From positions 45,858 to 109,857 of IMG/VR virus record IMGVR_UViG_3300028048_001412: a DNA stretch of 64,000 nt; one strand, written 5' to 3'. This DNA is from a virus. Taxonomy: Duplodnaviria; Heunggongvirae; Uroviricota; Caudoviricetes. Position 1 is the first letter of the stretch, and each line of letters starts with the position of its first letter. Both the position numbers and the translations under genes were made by a program. Of this stretch, positions 8,738 through 60,718 are shown one piece after another. Below the pieces are notes generated by a model. It was given only the letters and a program-made list of their open reading frames with translations. It ran no database searches and was not told where the DNA came from.

Positions 8738-8780
8738 ATTATATATTTTAATTATTTGTTTTTTAATAAAATATATTATA
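8738..8780 (-). promoter_or_regulatory. Box-type promoter A (15-bp box - N22 - TATAAT)
   Basis: TATAATATATTTTAT-taaaaaacaaataattaaaata-TATAAT, ~34 nt before the 8704 start. Confidence 0.7.
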
Positions 8781-8791
8781 AATGGTTAAAA

Positions 8792-11485
8792 TTACATGTC
8801 AAAACCATCTTCATCTTCAAATTCAATAGAAGGATTTTCTGAACTTTCATCATTTAAATCAAAGTCGAAATCTTCTTCATTTCCTTCTTTTTCATCATTT
8901 GAAAAATCGAATTCATTTTCTTTATTGTTTTCTTCAAAATCAAATTCTCCATCATTATTTGTTTCCTCTTCTTTTGTTTCATCATCTTCTAAATCAAATC
9001 CGTCATTAGATTCTTCATTGTTATTATCTTCATTATCATCTCCAAAATCAAATATATTATCTGAAGAATTATCTTCATTATTATTAGAATCTAAATCATC
9101 TGAATTATCATCATCTCCGAAATCAAAATCATTATCTTCGGAATCATTTGAATCATTTTCTACTTCATCGTCAAAATCTTCCATATCTTTATGTTTTGAA
9201 GAAGAATTATCATCAAATTGAACTATATTATCTTTATTTCCGTATAATTCAGCTTTAACTTTTTCTATATTCTTTACATAAGGTTTTCCTAATACTGACA
9301 TATCAGGCATTTCAACACCCATCTTATAAAATTCTTTAGCTAAAGCTTCAATTATATTATAAGAATCTTCATCATCAAGACAAACTCCTAATGTTCTAGC
9401 ATATTGAACTTTTGCTTCACCTAATTTAATAGCCGCATCACCTGCATTTATAAGAGTTTTAGTAAAATCTTTAATTTCACTTTCATCAAATACTTGTTTC
9501 ATTAAATCCATAGATCTTAATACTAATCTAAATGGAGTTAAATCTCTAGTAGTCTTATCTATATAATTAGTTAATCTTTGTGCTATTAAATATACATATA
9601 TTCCAGATGATCTTAATTTAGTAACTGCTCTTGCTAACATTGCATCCCATTCTTTAATATAATCTACTTTATCTTTTTTAGATTCTACTTGGGCATTTTC
9701 TTCATCTCCCCACTCTTTAATATTTCCTTTAAGAGTTGGAACCTCATCTATGAAACAGAATATTGTTGGTAATTTATGACCTTTCTTTCTCCATCCTTGT
9801 ATATTAGCTGTATTTTCAGTAGCAAACATTTCTTGTCTTCTAGTTCCTTCATCAATAAGAGTTTTAATCATATTGAAAGTTTCTTCACCGGTTCTTGGAT
9901 TATCTCCTTGAATCAATCTACATACATTTGGATGTAATGCAAATTTATTAAACATTGCATCACCTTTAGGATCAACTAATATAATTTGAACCATTTCAGG
10001 AAGATAGAATGCTAATAATTGAATTACTAATGACATAAAGAACCAAGATTTACCTGAGCCTGGACCACCTGCAAATGTTCCTGAATACATTTCTGCACCT
10101 TTGGCTCCCATTTCATATATAATAGGTTCACCAATTGAATCTACACCTATAATTAATGGAATATCTTTACTTCTTGTAAATAATTCCTTAACTACTGGAT
10201 GATTTATAATATCACCTATTAATATTGCATCTTTATTAGGTTTAGTTATTATTACATTGAAATGATCACCATCTAATTCTGCTGAACAAGAAATTTTATT
10301 TTTATCTTTTGCATTATTTCCAGTAAATTTTCTTTTTTCATCTACTAATAAATCTACTATATCAGAAGAATAATTATTCATTGTATCTTCTAATTGTTTT
10401 GCAGTTACTTTATTACCAATTGGTTTCTTTATTGTTAAGTAAGCACACATTACAGAATCTTTTAATTCAAGTAATTCTATACCTTTCTTAATTACTTCAG
10501 ATTCATCTTTTCCATAAATATCTGCAAATACTCTTCCTATAATAGCAAACATTCTTGTCCATTTATCAGAACCTGTTTCATAAGAAGTCATTTTAGCATA
10601 ATTTGGATTAAATGCTGGGAATATTTTATGTAATGAATCATATAAAGATGCAGTATTTATAATTCCTTTTGGCATTTCTAAATTATCTACATCTGGTTTA
10701 CCTTTATCTTCTTCTCCATCATCCCAAACGAAATTAGAAGATGAATCATTTGAATTATTATCATCTCCTAATAAACTATCTAAATCAGAATCAAATGAAC
10801 TATTATTATCTGAAGATGAATTAGAATCATCTCCTAATATATCATTCATAATTTCATCAAATGATTGATTATAATCATTAGCTAAAGTTACTACTTCATT
10901 TAATTCTTCATTATCATCTTTTACTTCTTTTTCTACTTGTTTATCTAAATCTTCTACTGTGGCTGGTTTATAACAATTTGCAAGTATTATTCCTAATGCT
11001 GATCCTGAAATTGCACAGTCAAAAATCATACCTATTATTCCCATTTGTCCAATGAAATAAAAGGTATTATCTCCTACATATCCAAATATAAAACATACTA
11101 AAAATGCGACGAATAAACACCCACAAGTAATAAGTAAATGTTTTAAAGCATTTATTGATTCATCTGCACTTTGTTGGCCTAATATTTTAAATATTTCTAC
11201 TAAAGCAGATATACCACCTATAATTATTAAACCACAAGTTTTAAAGAATCCTATTATGGAATAAATAATTACATCTAGAAAATCTTTAGGTTTTTCTCCA
11301 TCTGCACTTGTTGTTCCTGAATTTTGAGGTTGCATATTTGAAGCAAATGGATCATCATTTGAATCAAAAATACTTTTTGAGCCTGTTAAATTACCATCAC
11401 TTCCTGAATCATGACCCATAAAAGGATCCGAATTCAAGGAGTTAAATAAATTATCGGCTGTTTCATCTAAATAATCTCTAGCCAT
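8792..11485 (-). CDS. Membrane-anchored FtsK/SpoIIIE-family ATPase (TcpA/Tn916 ORF21-like coupling protein) with long acidic tail
   Basis: About 3 N-terminal TM helices; IPLIIGVDSIGEP; Walker A AGGPGSGKS; PEMVQIILVDPK; Walker B CFIDE; RSSGIYVYLIAQR; ~130-aa D/E-rich C-terminus. Confidence 0.88.
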   Translation of the reverse strand: MARDYLDETADNLFNSLNSDPFMGHDSGSDGNLTGSKSIFDSNDDPFASNMQPQNSGTTSADGEKPKDFLDVIIYSIIGFFKTCGLIIIGGISALVEIFKILGQQSADESINALKHLLITCGCLFVAFLVCFIFGYVGDNTFYFIGQMGIIGMIFDCAISGSALGIILANCYKPATVEDLDKQVEKEVKDDNEELNEVVTLANDYNQSFDEIMNDILGDDSNSSSDNNSSFDSDLDSLLGDDNNSNDSSSNFVWDDGEEDKGKPDVDNLEMPKGIINTASLYDSLHKIFPAFNPNYAKMTSYETGSDKWTRMFAIIGRVFADIYGKDESEVIKKGIELLELKDSVMCAYLTIKKPIGNKVTAKQLEDTMNNYSSDIVDLLVDEKRKFTGNNAKDKNKISCSAELDGDHFNVIITKPNKDAILIGDIINHPVVKELFTRSKDIPLIIGVDSIGEPIIYEMGAKGAEMYSGTFAGGPGSGKSWFFMSLVIQLLAFYLPEMVQIILVDPKGDAMFNKFALHPNVCRLIQGDNPRTGEETFNMIKTLIDEGTRRQEMFATENTANIQGWRKKGHKLPTIFCFIDEVPTLKGNIKEWGDEENAQVESKKDKVDYIKEWDAMLARAVTKLRSSGIYVYLIAQRLTNYIDKTTRDLTPFRLVLRSMDLMKQVFDESEIKDFTKTLINAGDAAIKLGEAKVQYARTLGVCLDDEDSYNIIEALAKEFYKMGVEMPDMSVLGKPYVKNIEKVKAELYGNKDNIVQFDDNSSSKHKDMEDFDDEVENDSNDSEDNDFDFGDDDNSDDLDSNNNEDNSSDNIFDFGDDNEDNNNEESNDGFDLEDDETKEEETNNDGEFDFEENNKENEFDFSNDEKEGNEEDFDFDLNDESSENPSIEFEDEDGFDM

Positions 11486-11488
11486 TAA

Positions 11489-11683
11489 TTATCCCACCTC
11501 ACTAAAGAAATTTATAAAGAATTCATTGCCAGTATATGCATTATAAAGTAAAAATAATGCTATAATTACAAATAATGGAATTCCTTTTAATACTTTATCT
11601 GAAAATTTACGATTTAATAATAAAAATACAGTTATTAAAATGCAAATTCCAAATAATAATCCATATCCAAAATATTCAGTCAT
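11489..11683 (-). CDS. Small two-TM membrane protein
   Basis: 64 aa with two hydrophobic helices; lies between the VirB4-like and FtsK-like genes; GGAGG RBS. Confidence 0.7.
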   Translation of the reverse strand: MTEYFGYGLLFGICILITVFLLLNRKFSDKVLKGIPLFVIIALFLLYNAYTGNEFFINFFSEVG

Positions 11684-11705
11684 TTATATACCTCCGGACA
11701 TTACT

Positions 11706-13898
11706 TTACGTAATATCTTCATCTAATTCACCTGGGTTAAATATATTCTTATCAAATAAAGCTTGATCTACTGCGGCTTTTACTATAGTTTGTACTGCTG
11801 GTGATTTAGTAGAAGCATCTAATTTAATTAAGAATGCTTTTCTAAATGGACTATCTATAGTATTACCACTACTATCTCTTGCACTTATAGAGTTTTCATA
11901 AGCAATTTTATCTAAATCTTTCTTAAATAATTGTAAGTCAAATGTTTCACAAACTCTTTCTCTCGTTCCTGCATCTTTAATATATCCAATACAGAATCCT
12001 GTTAAGTTTGTTTTTAATGCTTTCATAAAGTTACTTGAACCATCTAATAATTGAGAAAGGTTATTTGTAATTATGAATGCAATATCTCCTCTTTTTCTTC
12101 CACCTGTTACACAGTTAGTCATTATATCTTCTGCACCTGGAATATCAACGAATCTTTGAACCTCTTCCCATATCTTTAATGTAAAGTTTGATTTCTTTAC
12201 ATATTTATTATAGTTTGATATTTCATTAGTAACTTTAGAAACACATAATTGTTTTAATGCTAATTTTACTTGGTTTGCACCTTGTTGGTCAGCACCTTTA
12301 TTACCGAATGAGAATACAATAAATCTTGCATTTCTTATATCTTCTATATTTAATATTTCTTTAAATGTTCCGTATTCTGATTCACCCTTTACAAAATATT
12401 TCATAAGTTTTAATTTCATTGTTTCAGCGGCTTTTTGTAAAGAATCATCACCTCTTTTATTTATCCATTCTCTTTGTTCTATTAATCTACAAAGAACATC
12501 ATATACCATTGTTATATTTAAATCTTTTGATTTATGCCAAGTACTAGGATTATCAGTTACTCCTGCTTCTGCATATATTCTTGCAATTATTTGTGATAAT
12601 ATTGAATCTTCTTCAAGTGATATTTGACCACCCAATAATATTTTCATCATTGCTTTAGTAAAGTCTAATGATGCAGTTTTACCATCTTCATCTAATTCTT
12701 TTGAACCTGTTACATCTGAAATTCTTAATGGATCAAAATATCTACCATTTCCAGCTTTCATATTTATAACTACTGCTTCACCTTCTTTACCCGAATTTAA
12801 GAATTTAGCTAAATTAGTATATTCATCACCTTCATAGTCAAGAACACAAACAGACATTCCTTCTCTTAAACACCAAAGAATACAATTTTTAGTGAATACA
12901 GATTTACCACCACCTGTTCCTGCTGTAACTAATACATTTTCTGCATTATCTTTATCTTCTCTAAATACATGGAATACAGGTAATCCACTATATACATCTA
13001 ATCCCATTGGAACACCTTTATCACCTATCTTTCCTTGGTTATTAGATTGTAACATAGTAATTGTATCATCAGACATTATTTGTATAGGTATTTTTCTATC
13101 AATTCCATTTACCCATTTCATAGAAGTAGGTAATTCATATCTCATATAATCAAATACTTCACCTGATAATTCAGTAGCTTGAATTCCACATGATCTACAT
13201 CCTGCTTTAAAATTAGTAACAGCTTGATCTAATGCATCTAAATTATTTCTATTTCCTATTATTTGTATAAATAAAGATGTTTTAAAAATACTTCTTCTAT
13301 AAGTTATATCTGCATCTGTGAAATATTTAATTGTTTGTTCCATATTTTTTAATTTTGCTGTTTCACCTGCAGTTGATCTTTGAGTGAATGTATTTGTTCT
13401 ATCTACATCATCATTTTCAATTCTTCTTTGCCATTGTCTATTTAATTGAACCATTTTAGGACTATCCCAATCAATAGTATGAGGAGCTATATCCATAAAA
13501 TAATTAAATTGAACATCATAAACTCCATTTAAAGTCATTTCTTTTAAATATTGCAATAAATTCTTATCGACCCATGATTGATATTTTTCTACTATAAACA
13601 TTTTTATAATAGAAGTTTTAGTTACTACTCTTCCCCATTCAAGAGATAATTGTTCATTATTTAATACTGCTGAAGAAGGAATCATTAATTTCTGTGCTTT
13701 TATATTAGAAAGCATATCATCATATAATTCTAACGCACTTACATGATTAGGATCAAAATTCTTTTCCTTCTTTTCTTCTTTCTTTTTAATTATAGGTTTT
13801 TTAACCTTATTATCTTTAGCAATAGGTTTTTTTGTTGTTTTTTTATTCTCTAATTGAGTCTTATTCTCAACTTCTTTCTTTTTTCCGAATCCAAACAT
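11706..13898 (-). CDS. virB4: VirB4/TcpF-like conjugative ATPase
   Basis: GVPMGLDVYSGLPVF; Walker A VTAGTGGGKS; CVLDYEGDEY; FDPL; Walker B variant IWEEVQRF; GGRKRG...IITNNLSQ. Confidence 0.85.
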   Translation of the reverse strand: MFGFGKKKEVENKTQLENKKTTKKPIAKDNKVKKPIIKKKEEKKEKNFDPNHVSALELYDDMLSNIKAQKLMIPSSAVLNNEQLSLEWGRVVTKTSIIKMFIVEKYQSWVDKNLLQYLKEMTLNGVYDVQFNYFMDIAPHTIDWDSPKMVQLNRQWQRRIENDDVDRTNTFTQRSTAGETAKLKNMEQTIKYFTDADITYRRSIFKTSLFIQIIGNRNNLDALDQAVTNFKAGCRSCGIQATELSGEVFDYMRYELPTSMKWVNGIDRKIPIQIMSDDTITMLQSNNQGKIGDKGVPMGLDVYSGLPVFHVFREDKDNAENVLVTAGTGGGKSVFTKNCILWCLREGMSVCVLDYEGDEYTNLAKFLNSGKEGEAVVINMKAGNGRYFDPLRISDVTGSKELDEDGKTASLDFTKAMMKILLGGQISLEEDSILSQIIARIYAEAGVTDNPSTWHKSKDLNITMVYDVLCRLIEQREWINKRGDDSLQKAAETMKLKLMKYFVKGESEYGTFKEILNIEDIRNARFIVFSFGNKGADQQGANQVKLALKQLCVSKVTNEISNYNKYVKKSNFTLKIWEEVQRFVDIPGAEDIMTNCVTGGRKRGDIAFIITNNLSQLLDGSSNFMKALKTNLTGFCIGYIKDAGTRERVCETFDLQLFKKDLDKIAYENSISARDSSGNTIDSPFRKAFLIKLDASTKSPAVQTIVKAAVDQALFDKNIFNPGELDEDIT

Positions 13899-13902
13899 TT
13901 AA

Positions 13903-15060
13903 TTATCTCCTACCCTTCCCCGTAACATTTATACAATAATCGTCTAATATTTCAAATAATAATCTATTATCTTCTCCCATATTAGGTAATTTCGAATACC
14001 AATATAATGCAGTATTAAGATCAGGTAATGGTTTATTTATTTTACTAATACATAATTGTTGATTAGATATATCTGGAATTATTTCTTTTACTGCAAACAT
14101 ATAATCATTAAATAAATTACTACTTATTACATAATCTATCATTGCTTTATTTGATAAAGTAGCTAATTTATGAACATTTTTGCCTCTAATCATTTCTTGT
14201 CTATTTAATATTCTATCAATAAATATTAATTGATCAAAAGATGATTTATATAAATCTAATATTACTGCTGGAAATACTTGATAACATACAAGAACTCCCG
14301 GTTTTAAATACATTCCTCTATTGCTTGTATATGCTTCTGCAGAATCTACTTTAAGTTCATCTTTATATAAATAATCAAACATTCTATCATCAAATATTAC
14401 TATTTTAGCTCTTTTACCTTTCTTTATATCCAAGTAATTTACATAACTTAATAAAAAAGTATTAAAGTAAGGTAAATTATTAAATTCCCTTACATATAAT
14501 ATTGATGTATTAGAAGTTACACCATTTAAATCTACAGTTGTTCTTACAAATTCAGTACTTTTAGATAAGTTTTCATTTTGAGTTCTTAACATATCTAGTT
14601 CAGCTAAAGCATTATTCTTTTCTGCTTGTTCTTTTCTTAATTTTTCAGTCAATCTACTCATTGTAGCATCAGCTCTTACATCTTTTTGACCTTTTAATAA
14701 TTCTTTAGCTAAAGACATCATTCTTTTTTGATTCGGCTCTAATTTTAATGAATCAATACATTCATTAATCATTTCAGATAATGGTCTTCCTACATATGTA
14801 ATTACTTCTTCTTTAGTTCTATCTTCAGTAGTAACATTATCTAAATATTCCTCATCTACATCCTCAAAATCATCTACAGGATATAAATTAAATTGACCAT
14901 ATCTTTCCAATAGAGCACCATAAAAAGATAATACATCTTCATCTTTAGCAATTATAGCTACTCTTAAAGATTTATCAAGATCTTCAATTACTGAATTCTT
15001 TTCTTTATAATCTTCTACTAAATATGCTATTCCTTCTTCTTTTTCAATTCTTCTATTCAT
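13903..15060 (-). CDS. Hypothetical protein with coiled coil and a possibly degenerate P-loop-like C-terminal domain
   Basis: Central coiled coil, then TSILYVREF...KIVIFD strand-helix pattern without a Walker A motif. Confidence 0.7.
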   Translation of the reverse strand: MNRRIEKEEGIAYLVEDYKEKNSVIEDLDKSLRVAIIAKDEDVLSFYGALLERYGQFNLYPVDDFEDVDEEYLDNVTTEDRTKEEVITYVGRPLSEMINECIDSLKLEPNQKRMMSLAKELLKGQKDVRADATMSRLTEKLRKEQAEKNNALAELDMLRTQNENLSKSTEFVRTTVDLNGVTSNTSILYVREFNNLPYFNTFLLSYVNYLDIKKGKRAKIVIFDDRMFDYLYKDELKVDSAEAYTSNRGMYLKPGVLVCYQVFPAVILDLYKSSFDQLIFIDRILNRQEMIRGKNVHKLATLSNKAMIDYVISSNLFNDYMFAVKEIIPDISNQQLCISKINKPLPDLNTALYWYSKLPNMGEDNRLLFEILDDYCINVTGKGRR

Positions 15061-15063
15061 TAA

Positions 15064-16503
15064 TTAAGGCTTTCCTCCGAAAATCTTTAATATCATATTT
15101 TTAGTTTCTTTTTCATTATCTTTTGGTTTAGGCCCCATATATCCTTTTATATCTTTATTTTTCATTATAGAACCTACATTTGGAATATCTTCATATTTTA
15201 ATTCATTTATATTACCAAAAGATGCAAGTAAATCATCAATTGCTTTTATATCTGAATGTTTTGAATTTAATTTTTTATCTTTATTATCATTTACGGATAA
15301 ATAAACTGATTCTTTAAATACTTTTTCTCTTAAACTTACATCATCTTCTAAAGTTTCTACTGTTCTCATAAATGTTATATAATCTTTAGATTCAGATGGA
15401 ATATTAAATACTATCTTATTTGTTTTCATTACAATATCGTGTAATATATTTATATCACTTAATTGCATATCTAATAATAAGATATTATAGAATTTTTTAT
15501 GTTTTTCAATTAATTTATCTAATAATTCTAATGATTTTACATGATCTAATGATTCTCTATTAATTGGTGAAGTTAATAAATGTAAATTATTCTCAATTAA
15601 AAAGCTATTAGATATCATATTATTTTCTCTTAATGCTTTTTGTAAATTATTAGTATCTGATATTTGTACTGTATCATAAACCGCTTTATCTACAGTTCCT
15701 AATGTGTAATTTTTAAAATCTAAATCTATCAACCCTACAGTTAATCCTATTTTTGCTAAATATCTTGCTACTCTTAAAACTGTAGTTGATGTATAAGCTT
15801 TTGGACAACCTGTAAATACTACTATACATCCGCCTTTATAATATTTGATTATATTTTTAATATCTTCATCAGGATCAATAGATCTTCCGGTTGCTAAAGT
15901 TGGAATTATTTCTTCTTCTTTTTCTAATGATACTTCTCTTTTTGGAGTCTCATCAAAATCAACTTCAGTAAATGATTCTTTTCCTTCATCTGTTAAAGTA
16001 GGAACATCATCTTCCTCTTCAATTTTATATGAAGAAGTATCACCTTCATTTAAATTATCTAAATTAGTATCTTCTGGAATAAGTTCATCTTTTATTTGAG
16101 TATTTTCAACTTCAATATCTTCTGATTTATATAATCTATAAGGTTCTATAGTAGAAGCACTAATTAACTCTCTTATATAAGGGAAGGTGATTTTAGCATT
16201 CTTATTATCTATGATTTGAATATTATCATATGAAAAATAATCAATATCATATTTTTGCATTAAATCTAATTTATTCAATATAAAGATAGTATCATAATCA
16301 TTATTTTTAATGCATTCAGGAATATCTCCATCTATAGAATTTTCAAATATAAGTATTTTAGATATTTTTCCTGATTGTTTTATACATTTTTCTAATCCAC
16401 TTGTATATGGGCAACCAATAAGATCAATTCCACCAACATTATAATCTAGCTTTTCTAATGCTAGATTACTTTTATCTCCCAAACACAATATGCATTTTGC
16501 CAT
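15064..16503 (-). CDS. Degenerate MinD/ParA/CpaE-like protein with acidic linker
   Basis: IVVFTGCPKAYTSTTVLRVARYLAK...VGLIDLDF; YNILLLDM; Walker A lysines absent. Confidence 0.7.
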   Translation of the reverse strand: MAKCILCLGDKSNLALEKLDYNVGGIDLIGCPYTSGLEKCIKQSGKISKILIFENSIDGDIPECIKNNDYDTIFILNKLDLMQKYDIDYFSYDNIQIIDNKNAKITFPYIRELISASTIEPYRLYKSEDIEVENTQIKDELIPEDTNLDNLNEGDTSSYKIEEEDDVPTLTDEGKESFTEVDFDETPKREVSLEKEEEIIPTLATGRSIDPDEDIKNIIKYYKGGCIVVFTGCPKAYTSTTVLRVARYLAKIGLTVGLIDLDFKNYTLGTVDKAVYDTVQISDTNNLQKALRENNMISNSFLIENNLHLLTSPINRESLDHVKSLELLDKLIEKHKKFYNILLLDMQLSDINILHDIVMKTNKIVFNIPSESKDYITFMRTVETLEDDVSLREKVFKESVYLSVNDNKDKKLNSKHSDIKAIDDLLASFGNINELKYEDIPNVGSIMKNKDIKGYMGPKPKDNEKETKNMILKIFGGKP

Positions 16504-16542
16504 TTTTCTATCACCTCGACAATTTTTTTATATTATAATAAT

Positions 16543-16585
16543 ATTATAACATAAATCTTATATTTATATTATAAAATATATTATG
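16543..16585 (-). promoter_or_regulatory. Box-type promoter B
   Basis: CATAATATATTTTAT-aatataaatataagatttatgt-TATAAT; also has an extended -10 (TGn). Confidence 0.7.
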
Positions 16586-16590
16586 AAGTT

Positions 16591-17883: not shown

Positions 17884-17909
17884 CTATATCTCCTTGAAAT
17901 TATTTTATA

Positions 17910-21974: not shown

Positions 21975-21986
21975 TTCACCTTAACC

Positions 21987-22331
21987 TTATCCTAGAATTC
22001 TATCAAATACTATAATTCTTGCTACTAATATAACTATAATTAAAAGAGTATTTTTAATCAATACTTTCTTAAATAATATCTTTGTAGCGGATTCTTCTCC
22101 ATAGGCTACAGCTTCTACAACTGATTTACCTACTATAAATTCTGCTACTTTAGAATTTTCCCAAGTATTTTGAATGAAAGGAATCATTATATAAATACCA
22201 GCTAATATACTAGCAATAAATATCCATATAATTGCTCCAACCATAACCATTCCTGTAATTATAGAAAGGTTTTTTAATATAGTATTTTCAAAAAACATCA
22301 TTATAGAAGATGCAAATTTAAATCTACCCAT
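21987..22331 (-). CDS. Small membrane protein, pilin/VirB2-like; paralog of 22422..23171
   Basis: ITGMVMVGAIIWIFIASILAGIYIMIP aligns with LLGVLLVIAWVFYIFTVFVNGAAVIIP. Confidence 0.6.
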   Translation of the reverse strand: MGRFKFASSIMMFFENTILKNLSIITGMVMVGAIIWIFIASILAGIYIMIPFIQNTWENSKVAEFIVGKSVVEAVAYGEESATKILFKKVLIKNTLLIIVILVARIIVFDRILG

Positions 22332-22379
22332 AAATTATTTTGAATCCTTTATATTTTTGTATTTAAATATATAAATAAG

Positions 22380-22408
22380 CAAAAAGAGCCTAATATTTCA
22401 TAGGCTCT
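22380..22408 (-). terminator. Rho-independent terminator after the pilin-like gene
   Basis: 8-bp stem AGAGCCTA/TAGGCTCT, 8-nt loop, followed by TTTT(G)CTT on the minus strand. Confidence 0.65.
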
Positions 22409-22421
22409 TAATCTTATTTTA

Positions 22422-23171: not shown

Positions 23172-23182
23172 ATTAAATAATT

Positions 23183-23497: not shown

Positions 23498-23499
23498 AA

Positions 23500-25816: not shown

Positions 25817-25836
25817 TTATTAACCTCTAGATATTT

Positions 25837-26730: not shown

Positions 26731-26752
26731 TTATAATCCTTCTATTATTAAT

Positions 26753-29068: not shown

Positions 29069-29073
29069 TAAAA

Positions 29074-30138: not shown

Positions 30139-30170
30139 TAAATAACTATTTTCCTTCTCAATTTTATGAA

Positions 30171-30851: not shown

Positions 30852-30921
30852 ACCTCACAAATTAATTTTTAGTATCATTTATATTGTAAATTTTAATTAT
30901 TTTTCGTATTTATAATCTTAT

Positions 30922-30965
30922 ACTCATTTTCTGTATATCAAAGATTACATATACAGAAAATGAGT
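30922..30965. repeat. Perfect 17-bp inverted repeat with 10-nt loop
   Basis: ACTCATTTTCTGTATAT-caaagattac-ATATACAGAAAATGAGT; no clear U-tract on either side. Confidence 0.9.
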
Positions 30966-31095
30966 TAATAAGATAATTATTTCATACAACTTCAATATAT
31001 GCAAACCTAACTTAAATTAATATATTCTTTTTATAATTTGATTAGCTCAAAAAAGCTTTTTAGTGGAAATATATTTACATTGTATTTATACTTTT

Positions 31096-31138
31096 ATTAT
31101 AACTTATATATTGAAATACATATATAAAATATATTATA
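31096..31138 (-). promoter_or_regulatory. Box-type promoter C
   Basis: TATAATATATTTTAT-atatgtatttcaatatataagt-TATAAT. Confidence 0.7.
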
Positions 31139-50961: not shown

Positions 50962-50963
50962 TA

Positions 50964-52316: not shown

Positions 52317-52319
52317 ATA

Positions 52320-54203: not shown

Positions 54204-54221
54204 TTTGTTTATTATCCTTTT

Positions 54222-54494
54222 TTACTTTTTAAATTTAGCCCATTTTTTATCGTTATATTCTTTTTCCATTTCTTCAACAGTTCTTTTTTTAGTATAGTCT
54301 TTTATAATTTTATCTAAAACTGTTATATATTCTTTAGTAACAGCTTGTCTATTTTTGCCAAGTTGTTCTTTCATTTTCTTTGCTTCAGCGGCAATTTTCT
54401 TTCTGTTTCCATCACCTACTAATAATGTAAAATGTTCTACTAAAGAATCATAAATTTCCTTCAAATTACTTTTTGCACTTATTTCGTAATTCAT
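54222..54494 (-). CDS. Small hypothetical protein
   Basis: 90 aa; helical and basic. Confidence 0.7.
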   Translation of the reverse strand: MNYEISAKSNLKEIYDSLVEHFTLLVGDGNRKKIAAEAKKMKEQLGKNRQAVTKEYITVLDKIIKDYTKKRTVEEMEKEYNDKKWAKFKK

Positions 54495-54550
54495 AATCTT
54501 TCTCTTTAAACCTCTTCTACTTCATTAAATATTTTTGCTTAACATAAAAA

Positions 54551-54712
54551 TTAAGATGTAAAAACTAGATCACCTTCAGAATTGTATACATTTATGAAGT
54601 CAGAAGACCAAAGATTTTCACCTTGAATATAACCTAAAGCTTCATTTAAATCAATACATCTTACAAAATGTCTAAATTTCTCACCTTTATAACTACAAAG
54701 TATCAACCACAT
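54551..54712 (-). CDS. Small hypothetical protein, 53 aa (not in ORF track)
   Basis: MWLILCSYKGEKFRHFVRCIDLNEALGYIQGENLWSSDFINVYNSEGDLVFTS*; AAAGGAG RBS; first ORF after box-promoter E. Confidence 0.7.
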   Translation of the reverse strand: MWLILCSYKGEKFRHFVRCIDLNEALGYIQGENLWSSDFINVYNSEGDLVFTS

Positions 54713-54782
54713 AAAAAAGAAATTACTCCTTTATAATTAAATGGTAATTTTAATAATTTCTTTCACTTTATTCATCTTTTAT

Positions 54783-54825
54783 ATTATATATGATTTTCAG
54801 ATATGAATATATAAAAAATATTATA
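54783..54825 (-). promoter_or_regulatory. Box-type promoter E
   Basis: TATAATATTTTTTAT-atattcatatctgaaaatcata-TATAAT; the box overlaps the stop codon of 54821..56338. Confidence 0.65.
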
Positions 54826-56338
54826 AAATCTCTGTTTTTTCAGATTTTTCAGAAAATAAAGACTTATATTCTTTAGAATTTTCAAATGTTTTTTCATATT
54901 CTCTAACTCTATTATATTCAGGTAATATTACTTGTTCAAATATCTCTTTTCTCATTTTTCTAAATTTATGATTCTTTTGTGAATAACAACAATCATATAC
55001 ATTCCATAATATTTCATCAGGATTATCTTTTAATATTCTTTTCATCAATTCAATGGCCATTACTGATTCCCACCAGAATACTTCATTAGATAAAGTTTTT
55101 CTACAATTCATTTCATCAAATAAAACATTACAGAATCTAGATAATCTTTCTTTATAATTAGTATCATCTATATTTAATAATTTAGATAAATTTTCTAGTC
55201 TTTTTTCATCTTTATTTTTAAATTCATATAATCCTTTTAATCTTGCATATGCTAATTTAGGAGAATGACTAAAATAAGCTGGTAAAAAGTTCATTTTAAT
55301 TGCTTCTCTTAATTCAGATTGTTTATGAGATTCTATATGAAATTCTTTACATAATTTATCAGCAACTTTTCCATAGATATCATGATTTTCATTAATCCAT
55401 TTTTTAGTAGAAATAGATTTTTGAAGTCTAGGAATTTCGGATTTAATATCATTTTCTCCAAAATCGTGTAAATTATATCTTTCCATTACTATTTGTTTTA
55501 CTTTTTTATGGCCTTGTTCTTTTTGTAATTTTTCAAATAAAATATCATCACCATTACATATTTTAGCTCTTCCGTTACACATAGAATTAGTTAATCTAAT
55601 TGATATTTTAGCTAATCTATCATTATTTTTTTTACAATGTTTTATATGTAAATCTAATGTTCCTTGAAGAGGAATAGGTAATGATTCATTTATCTTTTCT
55701 AATTTTTCTTTCCATTGATTTATATGATATTTATGTTCTATCTTTTTAGCAATTAATTCAGGATTATATTTAGTAAAGTTTCTATATTGGTCTGCGCTTA
55801 TAGTAACTGTATTATCATGTAAAGTTTTAGGTTTTCTATTTTTAGGTAATTCTTTCTTTTTAGTTCTTGATAATATAAACTTATCATTATGTTTTATTCC
55901 ATAATTATCAAGTTTAGTTATTAAATTCATTAATTTTTCTTGATTAACTTTGAATCTAACAGAAAAATTAAGTTTTTTCATAGGATAAGTATCATAGAAT
56001 ATATAAGTTTGACCGCCTTCTTCTTTAGGACATAAATAAAGTTCTCTTTTTCCTTTATCATTAATGAAACTTTTCAAATATAAAGGTTCAATAATATTTT
56101 CTTTTTTAAGATATCTTATATAACTATATCCTGTATTTGTATTTCCATTGAATATTTCCCAATTTTTAGAATATATAAAATCAGTATTTTCATCAACTTC
56201 ATTATAGTATTTATTTTTTCTTGCATTTTCAGACAGAGATTTTATATGGTAGCAAAAAGTAGATAAATTCACTGGACTTAAGAATTTACCCATATTTAAT
56301 TCTGACCTTATTTTTTGAAACGCTGTCTGTTCACTCAT
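54821..56338 (-). CDS. Divergent family-A-polymerase-like protein (TV-Pol-like); candidate replication initiator/primase
   Basis: Motif A-like ENDIKSEIPRL, motif B-like REAIKMNFLPAYF and motif C-like WNVYDCCY, in the correct order; no exonuclease domain. Confidence 0.5.
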   Translation of the reverse strand: MSEQTAFQKIRSELNMGKFLSPVNLSTFCYHIKSLSENARKNKYYNEVDENTDFIYSKNWEIFNGNTNTGYSYIRYLKKENIIEPLYLKSFINDKGKRELYLCPKEEGGQTYIFYDTYPMKKLNFSVRFKVNQEKLMNLITKLDNYGIKHNDKFILSRTKKKELPKNRKPKTLHDNTVTISADQYRNFTKYNPELIAKKIEHKYHINQWKEKLEKINESLPIPLQGTLDLHIKHCKKNNDRLAKISIRLTNSMCNGRAKICNGDDILFEKLQKEQGHKKVKQIVMERYNLHDFGENDIKSEIPRLQKSISTKKWINENHDIYGKVADKLCKEFHIESHKQSELREAIKMNFLPAYFSHSPKLAYARLKGLYEFKNKDEKRLENLSKLLNIDDTNYKERLSRFCNVLFDEMNCRKTLSNEVFWWESVMAIELMKRILKDNPDEILWNVYDCCYSQKNHKFRKMRKEIFEQVILPEYNRVREYEKTFENSKEYKSLFSEKSEKTEIL

Positions 56339-56401
56339 AAATATTCTCTTTTATTTATTTACTTAGTTAATTTTATTTATTATGTTATATTTATTTTTAA
56401 T

Positions 56402-56444
56402 ATTATACTATATTTTTTATCTTTATTATATAAAAAATAATATA
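56402..56444 (-). promoter_or_regulatory. Box-type promoter F (variant box)
   Basis: TATATTATTTTTTAT-ataataaagataaaaaatatag-TATAAT. Confidence 0.55.
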
Positions 56445-56556
56445 TTATATCCCATAACATTTAATATGTCCCTGAAATCAACTAAATTTAACATATTTTT
56501 AACACCTGAATTTTCATATGTTAATAAAAAATTAATAATTTTTTTTTATTAAACCC

Positions 56557-56585
56557 TTGATTTTTTATAATTATTATATTATAAT
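56557..56585 (+). promoter_or_regulatory. Canonical sigma-A promoter for the sigma-like gene
   Basis: TTGATT-N17-TATAAT, ~35 nt upstream of ATG 56621; GAGGAG RBS. Confidence 0.75.
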
Positions 56586-56620
56586 AATATAAAAATTTAA
56601 TAGAGGAGAAACTGTTTTTT

Positions 56621-57391
56621 ATGAAAGTAGAAATTAACGACATCGAGACTAATCCTGAATATCGTAGATGGGTAGGTGAAAAGAAAGAAGCTTACCCAGA
56701 TATAAACATGATTAAAAATTACTATGAAACTCATTCATTAGAAATGCTCAATGAAATATTGAGAAGATTCCAAAGACTCATTATTAAGATTCTAAATGAT
56801 AATTCTACATTATGGGAAAAAAATCCAAGAGTTAGTAAAGAAGATTTAATTCAAGAATTAAATCTAGCAATAGTAGAAACATTAAATGAAGAAGTGTATA
56901 AGATTAAAGATGGTGGAGTTCAGCCTTCTACTTATTTTTATGGAGTATGCTATTCACATATTTTGATTTATCTTGAAAAGAATTCTGATTCTATTTTTAC
57001 CCATAAGAATTTAGCAGATATCAAGAAAGAAAAAATTATTAAAGAATTTGGAGATTCAGATGAAGTTTTAAAGAAACATGGAATTAAAAAGAAAAATTTA
57101 AGTAGATGGTTGCCAAAGACTATTAAATCATTCACGGATAAACCATCTGAAGATAGTAAACATACTTATGAAGAATTAATTCCAGATGGTAGATTAAATC
57201 CAGAACAAGAACTATATCAAAGGCAAAAAGAAGAAATGGTAGATAATATTTTAAGAGAAAATCTTAAAGAAGAAGAGTATAATATAGTAAGAGATTATAT
57301 GGATGAAAATTCCAAAAGAAAAATTCCTATAAATATTAGAACTAAATTATCTAAAATAGATAAATTAAGAAAATTATTCGAGGAAGGATAA
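56621..57391 (+). CDS. Sigma-70-family-like RNA polymerase factor with degenerate or truncated region 4
   Basis: Region 2: EDLIQELNLAIVETL...PSTYFYGVCYSHILIYL; region 3.2-like SFTDKPSEDSKHTYEELIPDGRLNPEQ; no region 4.2 HTH pattern. Confidence 0.72.
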   Translation: MKVEINDIETNPEYRRWVGEKKEAYPDINMIKNYYETHSLEMLNEILRRFQRLIIKILNDNSTLWEKNPRVSKEDLIQELNLAIVETLNEEVYKIKDGGVQPSTYFYGVCYSHILIYLEKNSDSIFTHKNLADIKKEKIIKEFGDSDEVLKKHGIKKKNLSRWLPKTIKSFTDKPSEDSKHTYEELIPDGRLNPEQELYQRQKEEMVDNILRENLKEEEYNIVRDYMDENSKRKIPINIRTKLSKIDKLRKLFEEG

Positions 57392-57402
57392 GGTGAAAAT
57401 AT

Positions 57403-58356
57403 ATGTTAAAGAGATTTGAACTTAAAAAATTATTTGTAAATTTAATTCCTTTATATTATGCTATAATGATTTATTTTACAATAGGTCAACTTATATATTA
57501 TTTCATAGTTGATACTAATCTTACTAATGTGAGTATATTTAAGGCAATACCAATATTAGTAGAAAAGATGAATAATCATTCAGTAATATCTACAATATGT
57601 TTTCTATTTGGAATAGGAATTATGTATTTCATATTTTATGAATTAAATTCTGAATTGGATGATGTTTATAAAAAATATTCTGACACATTATTTTTAATAA
57701 TTACTCCTATTATGCTTTTATTATTCTTTGATATAATTGATGTAATATTTAAAATTATATCATTTTTATCTAGTTTTGGATTATCTTATATAATAGTCCA
57801 TTTATCAATAATGAGTGGAATATATTATTTGATAAATAAAAAAGATAAAAATCTAAAATGGAATGTATTATGTAGCTTTACTGATTATATATTTATATTT
57901 TCTGCATTTTTCTTCGCGATGAGAATAATTGCTCAAATGTTAGAATCCGATAAATACACCACTATATTATATTTTTTATTTAATCATAAATTAAGAACTA
58001 TCATTTGCATGTATGTGACTTTCCTTTTAATTCTTTTATTTTCAAATGCTCAAATAGATGATAAAGGAAATATTATACCTAGTAAATATCCTAATAAAAA
58101 ATATAGTAAAAAAGAAATAGAAGATATAAAATTTAGTTCTAAAATAAAAGCAATATTTTCTATGATATTATTTTTAATAATAGATATATGTGAATTAAAA
58201 ATATGGAGAATAATAGGTGATAAATTAAAGGAAATGTTCAATAATCTATATGATTGGGTAAATAGTTTTAAATTTATCCCTTGGATAATGGGAACAATTT
58301 GCATTATAATAATTATTATTGCATTTATATCAAGTATAAAGAAAGAAGGTAAATAA
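57403..58356 (+). CDS. Polytopic membrane protein
   Basis: About 8 hydrophobic helices; C-terminal FIPWI motif. Confidence 0.75.
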   Translation: MLKRFELKKLFVNLIPLYYAIMIYFTIGQLIYYFIVDTNLTNVSIFKAIPILVEKMNNHSVISTICFLFGIGIMYFIFYELNSELDDVYKKYSDTLFLIITPIMLLLFFDIIDVIFKIISFLSSFGLSYIIVHLSIMSGIYYLINKKDKNLKWNVLCSFTDYIFIFSAFFFAMRIIAQMLESDKYTTILYFLFNHKLRTIICMYVTFLLILLFSNAQIDDKGNIIPSKYPNKKYSKKEIEDIKFSSKIKAIFSMILFLIIDICELKIWRIIGDKLKEMFNNLYDWVNSFKFIPWIMGTICIIIIIIAFISSIKKEGK

Positions 58357-58357
58357 T

Positions 58358-59302
58358 ATGAAAAATATGAAATCTAAACGAAAGAATGAAGATAAAAATA
58401 ATAATTTCAAAAATATTTTTAAATTAAGTATTTTAAACCGAATATTAGTATTTATTTTGTTATGTTCATTTGTATTTGCATTACTTCAATTTTCATTTGG
58501 AATGTTTGGATTGAGTTCAGATCTCATCGAGACATATAAAAGTGATTTATATAAAACTTTTATTTATAGTTCTTCATTTGATGATAAAATTCCAGTAGAT
58601 GGAGGATATATTTATAATTATCAACAAGATGATTTTAATTGGGAACCTATTAATTATACAGTGGATGATAAAGGAATTCCTGTTGATAAAAAAGCATATT
58701 ATTATGCTTGTCAAAAACAAAATGAGATTCAAATTAAGAAAATAATGGAAGATGAATATAAAAAGCCAATAAAAGAAATTAGTCATTCTGAAATAGAAGA
58801 ATCTCTTAAAAAATATATTTCAAAAGCAGAAAATTTAAATATTTATTTCAAATCCTCTAATTTATTTGAAAATCAAAATGAATTATATAACGTATTAAAT
58901 AAAAATAGTGGTGTAAGTACAATAGCATTTTTAATTATATTTTTATTAATTTATTTTACAGTCTCTCAATGTAAATGCTATATGAGGAATCCGTTATTAT
59001 GGATATGTGATTTCAATCATTATTTAGAAGATAAAATACATATAATTAGTAATTATGAAGATATTAAAAAGGAATTAATAGAACAAAATTTATTTTATTC
59101 AGCAATTAGTATATTTTTAATTATGCCTTTATATGTAATTAATTTACTTAAAATAATAATTGAAAAAATATATAATTTCATTATTGAATTTACTATAGAA
59201 ATAAATTTCATTCCTTGGATTATATGTTCTTTTATAATGATAGGAATTGCATTGATAATTTTTGGAATACATAAGAAATATGATATTAAAAATATAAAAT
59301 AA
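58358..59302 (+). CDS. Membrane protein with extracellular loop; probable distant paralog of the upstream gene
   Basis: About 4 TMs; same C-terminal FIPWI-TM-basic tail. Confidence 0.72.
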   Translation: MKNMKSKRKNEDKNNNFKNIFKLSILNRILVFILLCSFVFALLQFSFGMFGLSSDLIETYKSDLYKTFIYSSSFDDKIPVDGGYIYNYQQDDFNWEPINYTVDDKGIPVDKKAYYYACQKQNEIQIKKIMEDEYKKPIKEISHSEIEESLKKYISKAENLNIYFKSSNLFENQNELYNVLNKNSGVSTIAFLIIFLLIYFTVSQCKCYMRNPLLWICDFNHYLEDKIHIISNYEDIKKELIEQNLFYSAISIFLIMPLYVINLLKIIIEKIYNFIIEFTIEINFIPWIICSFIMIGIALIIFGIHKKYDIKNIK

Positions 59303-59319
59303 TGGAGGAAGTATAAATT

Positions 59320-59472
59320 ATGAGCAATAAAGAAATAAAATCATATCTTTTAAGACTTCCAAAAGATATATTCAATAAAATAGAAAAAGAAGCAGAAAAG
59401 AATAAGAGAAGTTTTAATAACGAGATATTTTTCAGATTAGAAAAATCACTGGAAACAAAGGATAACAAGTAG
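59320..59472 (+). CDS. Arc-family ribbon-helix-helix DNA-binding protein, 50 aa (not in ORF track)
   Basis: MSNKEIKSYLLRLPKDIFNKIEKEAEKNKRSFNNEIFFRLEKSLETKDNK* matches the Arc pattern LRLP...A..N.RS.N.EI..RLE.SL; GGAGGA RBS. Confidence 0.9.
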   Translation: MSNKEIKSYLLRLPKDIFNKIEKEAEKNKRSFNNEIFFRLEKSLETKDNK

Positions 59473-59474
59473 AT

Positions 59475-59891
59475 ATGAAAACTATAATTATAACAGTTAT
59501 AATTTGTCAACTAATAAGCTTCATAGGTCTTATTATATGGGATAGAACTGGATGTAACGATGAATTATTAATTCTATGTTGTCCTTTATTTATAATTCCT
59601 TTAATAATAATTAGAGAAATAAATGTATTTATTCTTCATAGACCTACAATCAAAGTTCTAAAAAGACATAAAACTGGAACAAGATATGAAATGTGGATTA
59701 ATTATAATAGAAAAACTAAAATTTATGAAGTGGAAATAGAAAAAGAAAATTATGGCATTTGGAATTACAATATACTTTTATATAAAGGTGAGGATAAAAA
59801 AGAAGCAATATCTAAATTCAATGAGTATAAGAGCAAAACAGAAAAAGAATTAGAAGAAATATTCAAAGAGAAGTTTAAAGATGAAGATTAA
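59475..59891 (+). CDS. Membrane-anchored hypothetical protein
   Basis: Two N-terminal hydrophobic helices. Confidence 0.7.
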   Translation: MKTIIITVIICQLISFIGLIIWDRTGCNDELLILCCPLFIIPLIIIREINVFILHRPTIKVLKRHKTGTRYEMWINYNRKTKIYEVEIEKENYGIWNYNILLYKGEDKKEAISKFNEYKSKTEKELEEIFKEKFKDED

Positions 59892-60483
59892 AATTAAACA
59901 TATTTACAGTACTGATTTTATATTATGGCCCATACCGTTTCTTGTCATATTTATTAGCATTATAATTTTAATTATTTTTACAATAAATAAAATTGATAGA
60001 AATCTTTATTTAGATTTATTTTCTCCGTTTAATTATTTTAATGCTGGAGCTACTGATTATGTAAAAGAGAAGTTAGGAATAAATATAAAAATTCAAAATA
60101 ATCCAATTTGGGAGAAAGAAAACACAACGACTATATACATTCCCGAACAATATGAAGACAGAAAATCAGATATAATAAAAACCATAGAAGAATATAAACT
60201 AATATATAATCATAGAATAATAAATACTCAAGAAATAGTTCAAGCCAATATTGTAAGATTAGTTGAAAGAAATAGACATGGATATTTAGGTAGATTTGAA
60301 ACAAGAAAATATGAAATAGAATACAAAGGATTAAAAGGTTATTATATAGAAGAAGCTAGGTCAGAAATATTAGCAAATGCGGGTGGAGATAGACCTTTAG
60401 AATCAGGAGAAAAAGTATGGGCTAGATTAGTTACTGAGAAATATAATGATACAGGTGAAATTGTAAATCAATATTTGAGATAA
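59881..60483 (+). CDS. Bitopic hypothetical protein
   Basis: One N-terminal TM; overlaps the upstream stop codon. Confidence 0.7.
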   Translation: MKIKIKHIYSTDFILWPIPFLVIFISIIILIIFTINKIDRNLYLDLFSPFNYFNAGATDYVKEKLGINIKIQNNPIWEKENTTTIYIPEQYEDRKSDIIKTIEEYKLIYNHRIINTQEIVQANIVRLVERNRHGYLGRFETRKYEIEYKGLKGYYIEEARSEILANAGGDRPLESGEKVWARLVTEKYNDTGEIVNQYLR

Positions 60484-60506
60484 ATATTATAAGGAGGATA
60501 TCATTT

Positions 60507-60665
60507 ATGATAACAATATGTGAAATGTGTAAAAAGAATAAAGAACAATGTAAGTCTAAAAATATTTCTCAATCTTGGAAGGACCTCATAAATAAACCAG
60601 AATGTTTAGATTTTGAACAAAATGAAGAAACTAAAATAGAAAACTTGAAATTTAAAGATAAATAA
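60507..60665 (+). CDS. Small Cys-containing protein, 52 aa (not in ORF track)
   Basis: MITICEMCKKNKEQCKSKNISQSWKDLINKPECLDFEQ...; AAGGAGG RBS; CxxC-x6-C...C. Confidence 0.7.
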   Translation: MITICEMCKKNKEQCKSKNISQSWKDLINKPECLDFEQNEETKIENLKFKDK

Positions 60666-60675
60666 GAGACAATCT

Positions 60676-60718
60676 TATAAAATATTTTATAGTAAATTAC
60701 GATAATTTAAAGTATAAT
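60676..60718 (+). promoter_or_regulatory. Box-type promoter G (perfect palindromic box)
   Basis: TATAAAATATTTTAT-agtaaattacgataatttaaag-TATAAT; 60676-60691 TATAAAATATTTTATA is a perfect palindrome. Confidence 0.7.

What the first reader, a model, noticed from the sequence alone, without database searches (positions are those of the whole stretch)
8738..60718. Seven-site regulon: near-palindromic 15-bp box fixed exactly 22 nt upstream of a perfect TATAAT, with no -35
Seen directly at seven sites: 8738-8780(-), 16543-16585(-), 31096-31138(-), 43963-44005(-), 54783-54825(-), 56402-56444(-) and 60676-60718(+). Each reads [T/C]ATA[A/T][T/A]AT[A/T]TTTTAT-N22-TATAAT, pointing toward the downstream gene. 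Three boxes are identical (TATAATATATTTTAT). The core ATAAwATATwTTAT is a dyad, perfect at 60676. The sites occupy nearly every large intergenic gap of the minus arm and would divide it into transcription units: VirB4/FtsK; pilin/VirB6/hydrolase; the second ATPase; MoxR/VWA; the polymerase-like gene. A further site precedes the SNF2 gene. None has a TTGACA-like -35, while the sigma-like gene does. Inference: an element-encoded activator (dimer site at about -49 to -35) or an element sigma co-regulates transfer and replication genes.
Basis: partly seen in the sequence, partly recalled or inferred. Interest (0 to 1): 0.88.

Follow-up and report, generated by a model that had tools for sequence, protein, structure and literature searches.

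The report
Jumbo-phage promoters with upstream AT box
An uncultured 284-kb phage-like replicon from cattle gut starts about twenty transcription units with one two-part signal, a 15-bp A/T box exactly 22 bp upstream of TATAAT in place of a -35 element; the signal is real and specific to this replicon, but the protein that reads the box is unknown.

Summary
All seven sites exist as described. The same pattern finds six more sites in the rest of the 284-kb IMG/VR virus record that holds the window. A weight matrix gives 18 sites, plus one with a 23-nt spacer. All 19 lie between genes and point the way the genes run.

Each of the 15 distinct exact boxes in the genome sits 22-23 nt upstream of TATAAT or TAAAAT. 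Box-derived words are the commonest intergenic 12-mers. No other viral, bacterial or metagenomic stretch scanned holds more than two copies.

The replicon has three promoter classes:
- A: TTGATT-N17-TATAAT, plus arm only, and it drives regulator genes.
- B: AAG-TATAAT-ATAA with no upstream element. This scan noted it earlier in the neighbouring window.
- C: the box class.

Box and -35 never occur together. Classes B and C share a G next to TATAAT, which class A lacks.

The "sigma-like" gene is a true sigma-70-family factor, with region 4 about 8 residues short. It shares a class-A-driven early operon with an Arc-like repressor-fold gene.

Best reading: these are -35-less promoters in which a sequence-specific protein bound near -42 replaces -35 recognition, as in class II activation or phage Mu Mor/C. 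The dimer claim and the "conjugative element" context are not supported. The scan previously noted the same geometry in T1-like coliphages.

The parts
8738..8780 (-). Class C promoter: box 8766-8780, 22-nt spacer, TATAAT 8738-8743. The start codon of the 265-aa gene lies 33 nt downstream.
16543..16585 (-). Class C promoter (box CATAATATATTTTAT), 39 nt upstream of the 479-aa AAA_31/ParA-like gene.
31096..31138 (-). Class C promoter with a 244-nt leader that holds a long hairpin, ahead of the 226-aa metallophosphoesterase gene.
43963..44005 (-). Class C promoter, 34 nt upstream of the 172-aa gene.
54783..54825 (-). Class C promoter whose box overlaps the stop codon of the 505-aa gene. It precedes 53-aa and 90-aa ORFs and then the DUF2201 (VWA-like) and ATPase genes.
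56402..56444 (-). Class C promoter in the divergent region, 63 nt upstream of the orphan 505-aa gene.
60676..60718 (+). Class C promoter (palindromic box variant), 77 nt upstream of the intein-containing SNF2 helicase gene.
56557..56585 (+). Class A (host sigma-A-type) promoter TTGATT-N17-TATAAT of the early regulatory operon. Included for contrast with class C.
   Evidence: a relative (L063) has TTGAAC-N17-TATAAT at the same place
56621..57391 (+). Phage sigma-70-family factor (256 aa) with region 4 about 8 residues short. Candidate reader of the G-TATAAT -10 element.
59320..59472 (+). Arc-like ribbon-helix-helix protein (50 aa) in the same early operon. One candidate box binder.
   Evidence: PF03869, E 1.7e-9, above the curated cut-off

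Best explanation
The sites are sigma-70-type promoters that have no -35 element.

Inferred steps:
- TATAAT is the -10 hexamer, and transcription starts about 7 nt after it.
- The 15-bp all-A/T box then lies at about -49 to -35, centred near -42.
- The box is the docking site of a sequence-specific DNA-binding protein that sits beside or in place of sigma region 4 and recruits RNA polymerase, as class II activators and the Mu Mor/C proteins do.
- The binder is more likely replicon-encoded and made early from class A promoters. Candidates are the two Arc-like proteins and a 212-aa protein with several HTH modules. A host factor is less likely.
- The -10 element probably belongs to the same polymerase form that reads the class B promoters, most likely core enzyme plus the phage's own sigma, whose region 4.2 HTH is incomplete.

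Shown here: the motif, its fixed geometry, its placement and orientation, its mutual exclusion with -35 elements, and the existence and early-type promoters of the candidate regulators.
For: Motif and geometry:
- The spacing is fixed at 22 nt (one site at 23), while the spacer sequence itself is unconserved. Conservation of the box therefore reflects selection on the box, not recent duplication.
- All 19 sites are intergenic and co-oriented. The start codon lies 30-80 nt downstream for 14 of the 19 sites.
- One site, at genome 183147, has its TATAAT 7 nt before an ATG with no ribosome-binding site. That fits a leaderless start 7 nt after the hexamer.

Box replaces -35:
- Box and -35 are mutually exclusive. 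None of the 12 class A promoters has a box. Their upstream regions are ordinary A- or T-tracts, not box-like.
- Class C spacers carry at most weak TGA or AGA remnants at the -35 position.

Link to class B:
- G directly 5' of TATAAT occurs in 11 of 19 class C sites. It defines class B as I sorted it, and class B sites share AAG/AGG just 5' of TATAAT. It occurs in 1 of 12 class A sites.
- Eight class C sites lack that G, which suggests the box compensates for it.

Specificity:
- No other stretch among IMG/VR viral contigs, GTDB genomes or JGI metagenomes has more than two copies.

Candidate regulators:
- The 256-aa early protein is a sigma factor. A profile of six homologues matches FliA at E 1.7e-13 and SigA at about 1e-12 over regions 2-4. 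The top 50 Foldseek hits are nearly all sigma factors.
- Its region 4 is 37 residues against 45 in FliA and in homologues P0003 and P0004.
- The early operons also encode two Arc-like proteins and a GerE/HTH_7 multi-HTH protein.
Against: - No transcription start, protein-DNA contact or expression timing has been measured.
- No relative with the box was found, so there is no comparative support. The only syntenic relative fragment (L323) has class A and class B promoters but no box, and uses a class B promoter before its SNF2 gene.
- From memory (Estrem et al. 1998), the 3' two-thirds of the box resembles the UP-element consensus AAAWWTWTTTT in 10 of 11 positions. The box also lies where the proximal alpha-CTD subsite sits.
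- Arc-family proteins are usually repressors.
- The genes downstream of the sites are functionally mixed, so no temporal class can be assigned.
Confidence: 0.5

Rival explanations
1. The box is an unusually conserved UP-like element. The alpha-subunit C-terminal domains of host RNA polymerase bind it in the minor groove at the proximal subsite, around -42, and this makes up for the missing -35. On this reading the promoters need no factor and may be strong from the start of infection.
For: - The box is pure A/T with a T-tract and sits immediately upstream of the -35 position.
- It resembles the UP consensus (from memory, not tested here).
- No dedicated binder has been identified.
Against: - Fifteen near-invariant positions, including an alternating TATAATAT half, are far more specific than UP elements, which are degenerate.
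- The replicon's own class A promoters use plain A/T tracts upstream and never the box, and the box never accompanies a -35, although UP elements normally add to a -35.
- No bacterial genome stretch shows clustered copies, as a host promoter feature would.
Confidence: 0.2
2. The phage sigma holoenzyme reads both halves itself. Its region 2 reads G-TATAAT and its remodelled C-terminal domain reads part of the box, giving a bipartite promoter with an abnormally long spacer.
For: - A divergent sigma with an altered region 4 is encoded and made early.
- The strict spacing suggests one rigid complex.
- The shared G at -13 links classes B and C.
Against: - Region 4 sits on the beta flap and reaches only about -30 to -35. 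The box centre is about 9 bp further upstream.
- The sigma's 3.2-like linker is of ordinary length, about 30 low-confidence residues.
- The HTH is shortened, not elaborated.
- Class B promoters, which probably use the same sigma, need no upstream element.
Confidence: 0.12
3. The box is an operator for a repressor, for example one of the Arc-like proteins. On this reading the class C cores are class-B-like -10-only promoters that are held off or shut down at some stage.
For: - Arc/MetJ-fold proteins are typically repressors, and two are encoded in early operons.
- Class B shows that a -10-only promoter can exist in this replicon.
Against: - Eight of 19 class C cores lack the G that every class B promoter has, and their downstream context is weaker, so they look dependent on the box rather than hindered by it.
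- Repressor sites usually overlap the -35 to +1 region and tolerate variable placement, whereas this one is fixed at 22 nt.
- The roughly 135-kb minus arm has almost no other promoter.
Confidence: 0.1
4. The box is the binding site of a host transcription factor that the replicon borrows. Earlier notes of this scan propose the same for T1-like coliphages, whose roughly 20-bp box also lies 22 nt upstream of the -10.
For: - The geometry and copy number match those notes, which are unchecked AI leads.
- The constant asymmetry fits a monomer with two HTH domains.
Against: - The host is unknown.
- The box matches no Firmicute regulator consensus I could recall (CodY, Fur/PerR 7-1-7, ComK, NrdR). 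This was checked from memory only.
- Bacterial genome stretches with the motif are single, scattered hits.
Confidence: 0.08

Closest known systems
Class II activator-dependent bacterial promoters (CRP/FNR at -41.5, LuxR-type at about -42.5, class II MarA/SoxS sites)
   Same: The activator site abuts or overlaps the -35 position and is centred near -42. The -35 is poor or absent, the -10 is good, and the spacing to the -10 is fixed.
   Different: The box sequence is unrelated and only 15-17 bp long. It is all A/T and read asymmetrically. The binder is unknown, and the start site and activator dependence are not measured.
Phage Mu middle (Pm, Mor) and late (C protein) promoters
   Same: A phage-wide set of -35-less promoters is switched on by a small phage-encoded DNA-binding protein bound at about -33 to -55. 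These form a temporal class downstream of early genes.
   Different: Mor and C sites are G/C-containing dyads. No Mor/C homologue was seen here. This replicon also encodes its own sigma factor.
T4 middle promoters (MotA box plus AsiA 'sigma appropriation') and T4 late promoters (gp55, a sigma without region 4)
   Same: A phage element replaces -35 recognition while a TATAAT-like -10 is kept. The regulators are early gene products. A phage sigma with defective region 4 resembles gp55, and class B resembles a -10-only late promoter.
   Different: The MotA box is a 9-bp TGCTT-containing motif centred at -30, whereas this box is centred near -42. No MotA, AsiA or gp33 homologue was identified. The sigma here keeps regions 3 and 4.1.
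UP elements (e.g. rrnB P1)
   Same: An A/T-only element upstream of -35 with a T-tract.
   Different: The box is near-invariant rather than degenerate. It is never combined with a -35 and lies about one helical turn closer to the start than the best-matching UP subsite.
Box-N22-TATAAT promoters of T1-like coliphages
   Same: About 20 copies per genome, a box centred near -42, 22 nt to the -10 hexamer, no -35, and often touching the upstream stop codon.
   Different: The box sequence is different (a 20-bp marbox-like site), and so are the host phylum and phage lineage. There the proposed binder is a host AraC-family protein.

Membership tests
Sigma-70-type promoter | A -10 hexamer close to TATAAT, placed 20-300 nt upstream of a co-oriented gene | tested here: met
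   18 of 19 sites have exact TATAAT and one has TAAAAT. All are co-oriented, at 7-709 nt from the start codon.
Sigma-70-type promoter | A -35 hexamer (TTGACA-like) 16-18 nt upstream of the -10 | tested here: not met
   None in the seven window sites. Genome-wide there are only weak TGA/AGA remnants and one TTGAAA, at genome site 270858. The 12 class A promoters do have a -35.
Sigma-70-type promoter | Transcription start 6-9 nt after the -10 | not testable with these tools
The only indirect support is one leaderless arrangement.
Class II activator-dependent promoter | A protein-binding site centred near -41.5 that abuts or overlaps the -35 position at fixed spacing | tested here: met
   The box ends 22 nt before TATAAT in 18 sites and 23 nt in one. 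This gives -49 to -35 if the start is 7 nt after the hexamer.
Class II activator-dependent promoter | Activity depends on the bound activator | not testable with these tools
   Needs reporter or in-vitro transcription assays.
Symmetric dimer operator | Two-fold sequence symmetry beyond chance, with no constant polarity | tested here: not met
   The best axis gives 5.5 of 7 pairs and a neighbouring axis 5.2. About 5% of A/T-only 23-mers reach 6 of 7. The non-complementary T6/T11 pair keeps the same orientation in 18-19 of 19 sites.
UP element | A degenerate A/T-rich element at -40 to -60 that adds to a core promoter with a -35 | tested here: not met
   The box is near-invariant at 15 positions and never accompanies a -35. 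Class A promoters use other A/T tracts. Alpha-CTD binding itself was not testable.
T4 MotA-dependent middle promoter | A MotA box (TGCTT core) centred at -30, 11-13 nt from the -10 | tested here: not met
   The box has no G or C and ends 22 nt from the -10.
Sigma-70 family protein (the 256-aa gene product) | Regions 2, 3 and 4 recognisable by sequence profile and by fold | tested here: met
   The profile matches FliA at E 1.7e-13 over positions 39-260. The DLIQE motif of region 2 is conserved. The top 50 Foldseek hits are nearly all sigma factors.
Sigma-70 family protein (the 256-aa gene product) | A complete region 4.2 helix-turn-helix for -35 recognition | tested here: inconclusive
   Region 4 is about 8 residues shorter than in FliA and in homologues P0003 and P0004 (37 against 45). 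The model shows two short helices after a loop. Loss of function is inferred only.

The most novel reading that the evidence does not exclude
The replicon uses a two-piece promoter-recognition system. Its own sigma factor has an incomplete region 4.2 HTH and reads only G-TATAAT. A small DNA-binding protein made from the same early operon, the Arc-like ribbon-helix-helix protein, binds the all-A/T box at -42 and supplies the missing upstream recognition. It would in effect be a detachable region 4. Because the box contains no G, it would also be unaffected by the replicon's own 7-deazaguanine DNA modification.
Probability: 0.1. Interest if true: 0.8.

Novelty: new variant of a known kind. Interest (0 to 1): 0.5.

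Why it matters
Transcription programmes of uncultured giant phages are almost unknown. Here the sequence alone gives a three-class promoter map (A, B and C), a dedicated sigma factor with a defective -35-reading domain, and a short list of early DNA-binding proteins.

The box class gives a cheap, concrete test: core polymerase plus the recombinant sigma, with or without the Arc-like or multi-HTH protein, on class A, B and C templates.

If a phage protein reads the box, it adds a new example of how phages bypass -35 recognition. It would also supply a compact, orthogonal promoter-activator pair for low-GC hosts. If the box proves to be only a strong UP-type element, the finding is ordinary.

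Tried and rejected
1. Transcript evidence. Runs holding the stretch were found, all from ruminant gut, including one metatranscriptome.

2. Relatives for phylogenetic footprinting.
- The search for related loci with the FtsK-like and the 505-aa proteins found nothing.
- The 505-aa protein has no homologue at all.
- The 172-aa protein is not on record.
- The sigma has one 59%-identical homologue, on a 1.3-kb contig, and four distant ones.
- The only useful relative fragment (L323) has no box.

3. Scans for the motif itself in viral, genome and metagenome collections gave only single scattered hits. tblastn of all proteins of this replicon against those loci showed none is a relative.

4. The dyad or dimer reading is rejected as unsupported.

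5. The tandem -10 reading, in which the TATAAT at the start of the box is itself a promoter: the base 5' of the box is T in 17 of 19 sites, so the G is absent. Only one site (8738) happens to have TTGACA 16 nt upstream of it. Rejected as a general explanation.

6. Matches to the CodY, Fur/PerR, ComK and NrdR boxes were considered from memory only. None fits in both half-sites and spacing.

7. Pfam families for the large-terminase nuclease domain, HK97 capsid and tail sheath give no hit in the 284 kb. PHROGs and Pfam leave most minus-arm genes unnamed. I could therefore not call class C 'late'.

8. Rfam found nothing in the window.

Full report
**What the window is.** The window is bases 45858-109857 of a single 284,018-bp IMG/VR virus record with 25% G+C. 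CheckV estimates it about 92% complete. Genes run on the minus strand from about 102.2 kb down through the start of the record and again at 250-284 kb. They run on the plus strand from 102.2 to 250.2 kb. Runs that hold the sequence come from cattle, goat and sheep gut. Earlier notes of this scan call it an uncultured jumbo phage. I found no Pfam hit for the terminase nuclease domain, an HK97 capsid or a tail sheath, so 'phage-like replicon' is the safest name.

**Checking the observation.** That test is circular, so I looked for independent checks.
When the spacer is varied from 14 to 30 nt, 13 hits fall at 22 and one at 23. The two at 30 are a second TATAAT behind sites already counted.
- The 16 box matches are 15 distinct boxes, because the palindromic box at 60676 matches on both strands. 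Every one has TATAAT or TAAAAT 22-23 nt downstream.
- Boxes with one mismatch that lie inside genes or on the wrong strand have no such hexamer.
- A weight matrix separates 18 sites (20.5-44 bits) from the next candidate (13.9 bits). Five Markov-chain genomes peaked at 7.5-20.0 bits.
- All sites lie between genes and point the way the genes run.
- With no prior, the three commonest 12-mers in 150 intergenic segments are pieces of the box.
- The 22 spacer bases are not conserved. The conservation of the box is therefore selective and not a trace of recent duplication.

**Three promoter classes.** Aligning every intergenic, co-oriented TATAAT shows three kinds.
- Class A has 12 sites, all on the plus arm. 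It is a near-consensus TTGATT-N17-TATAAT, often as an almost identical cassette preceded by CCC and A/T tracts.
  - It drives the sigma gene, a 212-aa protein with several HTH modules, an operon with a second Arc-like protein, and radical-SAM, HAD and phosphoesterase genes.
- Class B has about 17 sites at 110-186 kb. It is AAG/AGG-TATAAT-ATAA with nothing conserved upstream. This scan already described it in the neighbouring window (e1-1687865).
- Class C is the box class, with 19 sites on both arms. It is almost the only promoter type on the roughly 135-kb minus arm.

Box and -35 never occur together. A G directly 5' of TATAAT is present in 11 of 19 class C sites. It defines class B as I sorted it, and class B sites share AAG/AGG just 5' of TATAAT. 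It is present in only 1 of 12 class A sites. So the class C core resembles class B, not class A. The eight class C sites without that G suggest that the box compensates for a weaker core.

**Geometry.** If transcription starts about 7 nt after TATAAT, the box spans -49 to -35. It lies immediately upstream of where a -35 hexamer would sit and is centred near -42. One class C site, at genome 183147, has its TATAAT 7 nt before an ATG with no ribosome-binding site, which fits a leaderless start. In the window the box begins 5-18 nt after the upstream stop codon, or overlaps it. There is no terminator in front of it, so these promoters add to read-through rather than delimit isolated operons. Elsewhere in the genome some sites do follow a terminator hairpin.

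**Is the box a dimer site?** The consensus gives 5.5 of 7 complementary pairs at its best axis and 5.2 of 7 at the next. About 5% of A/T-only 23-mers reach 6 of 7. The one non-complementary pair (T6/T11) has the same polarity relative to the -10 in essentially all sites. The box is therefore read as an asymmetric site, or its two halves carry different constraints. A symmetric dimer is not supported.

**Candidate readers.** The 256-aa product of window 56621-57391 is a sigma-70-family factor.
- Atlas feature and structure neighbours are sigma factors.
- A profile of six homologues matches FliA (E 1.7e-13) and SigA across regions 2-4.
- The alignment shows the DLIQE signature of region 2.
- An AlphaFold model (pLDDT 71) has nearly only sigma factors among its top 50 Foldseek hits.

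Its region 4 is about 8 residues shorter than in FliA or in homologues P0003 and P0004 (37 against 45 residues), and the model shows a loop where the first HTH helix should be. Loss of -35 reading is inferred, not shown.

The same class-A-driven operon encodes an Arc-like ribbon-helix-helix protein (window 59320-59472; PF03869, E 1.7e-9). A second Arc-like protein and a 212-aa GerE/HTH_7 multi-HTH protein also sit behind class A promoters.

**Specificity and relatives.** Scanning 2.9 million viral contigs with the motif gives 59 stretches, each with one copy (two of them with a tandem pair). GTDB genomes and JGI metagenomes give only single, scattered hits. None of these stretches encodes relatives of this replicon. 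So the box is not a general feature of any sequenced host or phage group. The only informative relative fragment is L323, which carries a sigma homologue followed by an SNF2 gene. It has a class A and a class B promoter but no box, and its SNF2 gene uses class B where this replicon uses class C.

**Mechanism.** I take these to be -35-less promoters in which a sequence-specific protein bound at about -42 replaces -35 recognition. This is the logic of class II activation, of Mu Mor/C and, more loosely, of T4 MotA/AsiA. The -10 is probably read by the same polymerase form as in class B, most likely the phage sigma. I put this at about 0.5. Within it, a phage-encoded binder is more likely than a host one. 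The rivals are:
- a UP-like element read by alpha-CTD (0.2);
- the phage sigma reading both halves itself (0.12);
- a repressor operator on class-B-like cores (0.1);
- a borrowed host factor (0.08), as earlier notes of this scan propose for the identically spaced boxes of T1-like coliphages (unchecked leads).

The comparisons with UP-element and regulator consensus sequences rest on my memory of the literature, not on a tool.

**Verdict.** The dimer claim, the conjugation context and the strict operon division are not supported. In kind, this is a new sequence variant of a known promoter architecture. Its interest lies in the pairing with a region-4-defective sigma and in how directly it can be tested.

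Noticed in passing
window 56557-56585 (+) and 11 further places on the plus arm of the genome (e.g. G000 143524, 173128, 188579, 206087): Twelve near-identical class A promoter cassettes (CCC-TTGATT-N17-TATAAT). Many are followed 5 nt later by a second G-TATAAT of class B type, so they are tandem promoters for two polymerase forms.
   Followed up: partly
window 30915-30973 (-): The 244-nt leader behind the class C promoter at 31096 holds a roughly 24-bp perfect hairpin. The leader folds at -43 kcal/mol (z -3.5 against shuffles) and has no Rfam match. It could be a regulatory or processing structure.
   Followed up: partly
window 22332-22421 (-): This is the only truly non-coding gap of the window's minus arm without a box. 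It holds an intrinsic-terminator-like hairpin followed by a T run.
   Followed up: no
window 8775-8802 (-): The 3' end of the FtsK-like gene carries TTGACA 16 nt upstream of the TATAAT that begins the box at site 8738. This may be a chance or accessory sigma-A promoter and is seen at this site only.
   Followed up: partly
window 60796-63033 (+): The SNF2 helicase gene carries an intein (PF14890, E 4.5e-13) inserted in the helicase N-terminal domain.
   Followed up: no
G000 183147-183199 (outside the window): A class C TATAAT lies 7 nt before the ATG of a 100-aa gene with no ribosome-binding site. This is probably a leaderless mRNA.
   Followed up: partly
whole genome G000; window 8792-16503 and 44024-48100: No Pfam hit for the terminase nuclease domain, an HK97 capsid or a tail sheath in 284 kb. 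The minus arm holds FtsK/HerA-type ATPases, a BspA-type LRR protein and a 1973-aa DUF285/Listeria-Bacteroides-repeat surface protein. The virion status of this 'phage' deserves its own check.
   Followed up: partly
window 54821-56338 (-): The 505-aa gene flanked by two class C promoters has no homologue among 5.8 billion proteins other than itself.
   Followed up: partly
L323 (Logan contig, 10.5 kb) and L063 (1.3 kb): These are distant relatives with the same sigma-then-SNF2 gene order. In L063 the SNF2 gene follows the sigma gene directly, so the five genes between them in this replicon, including the Arc-like gene, are an insertion or lineage-specific block.
   Followed up: partly
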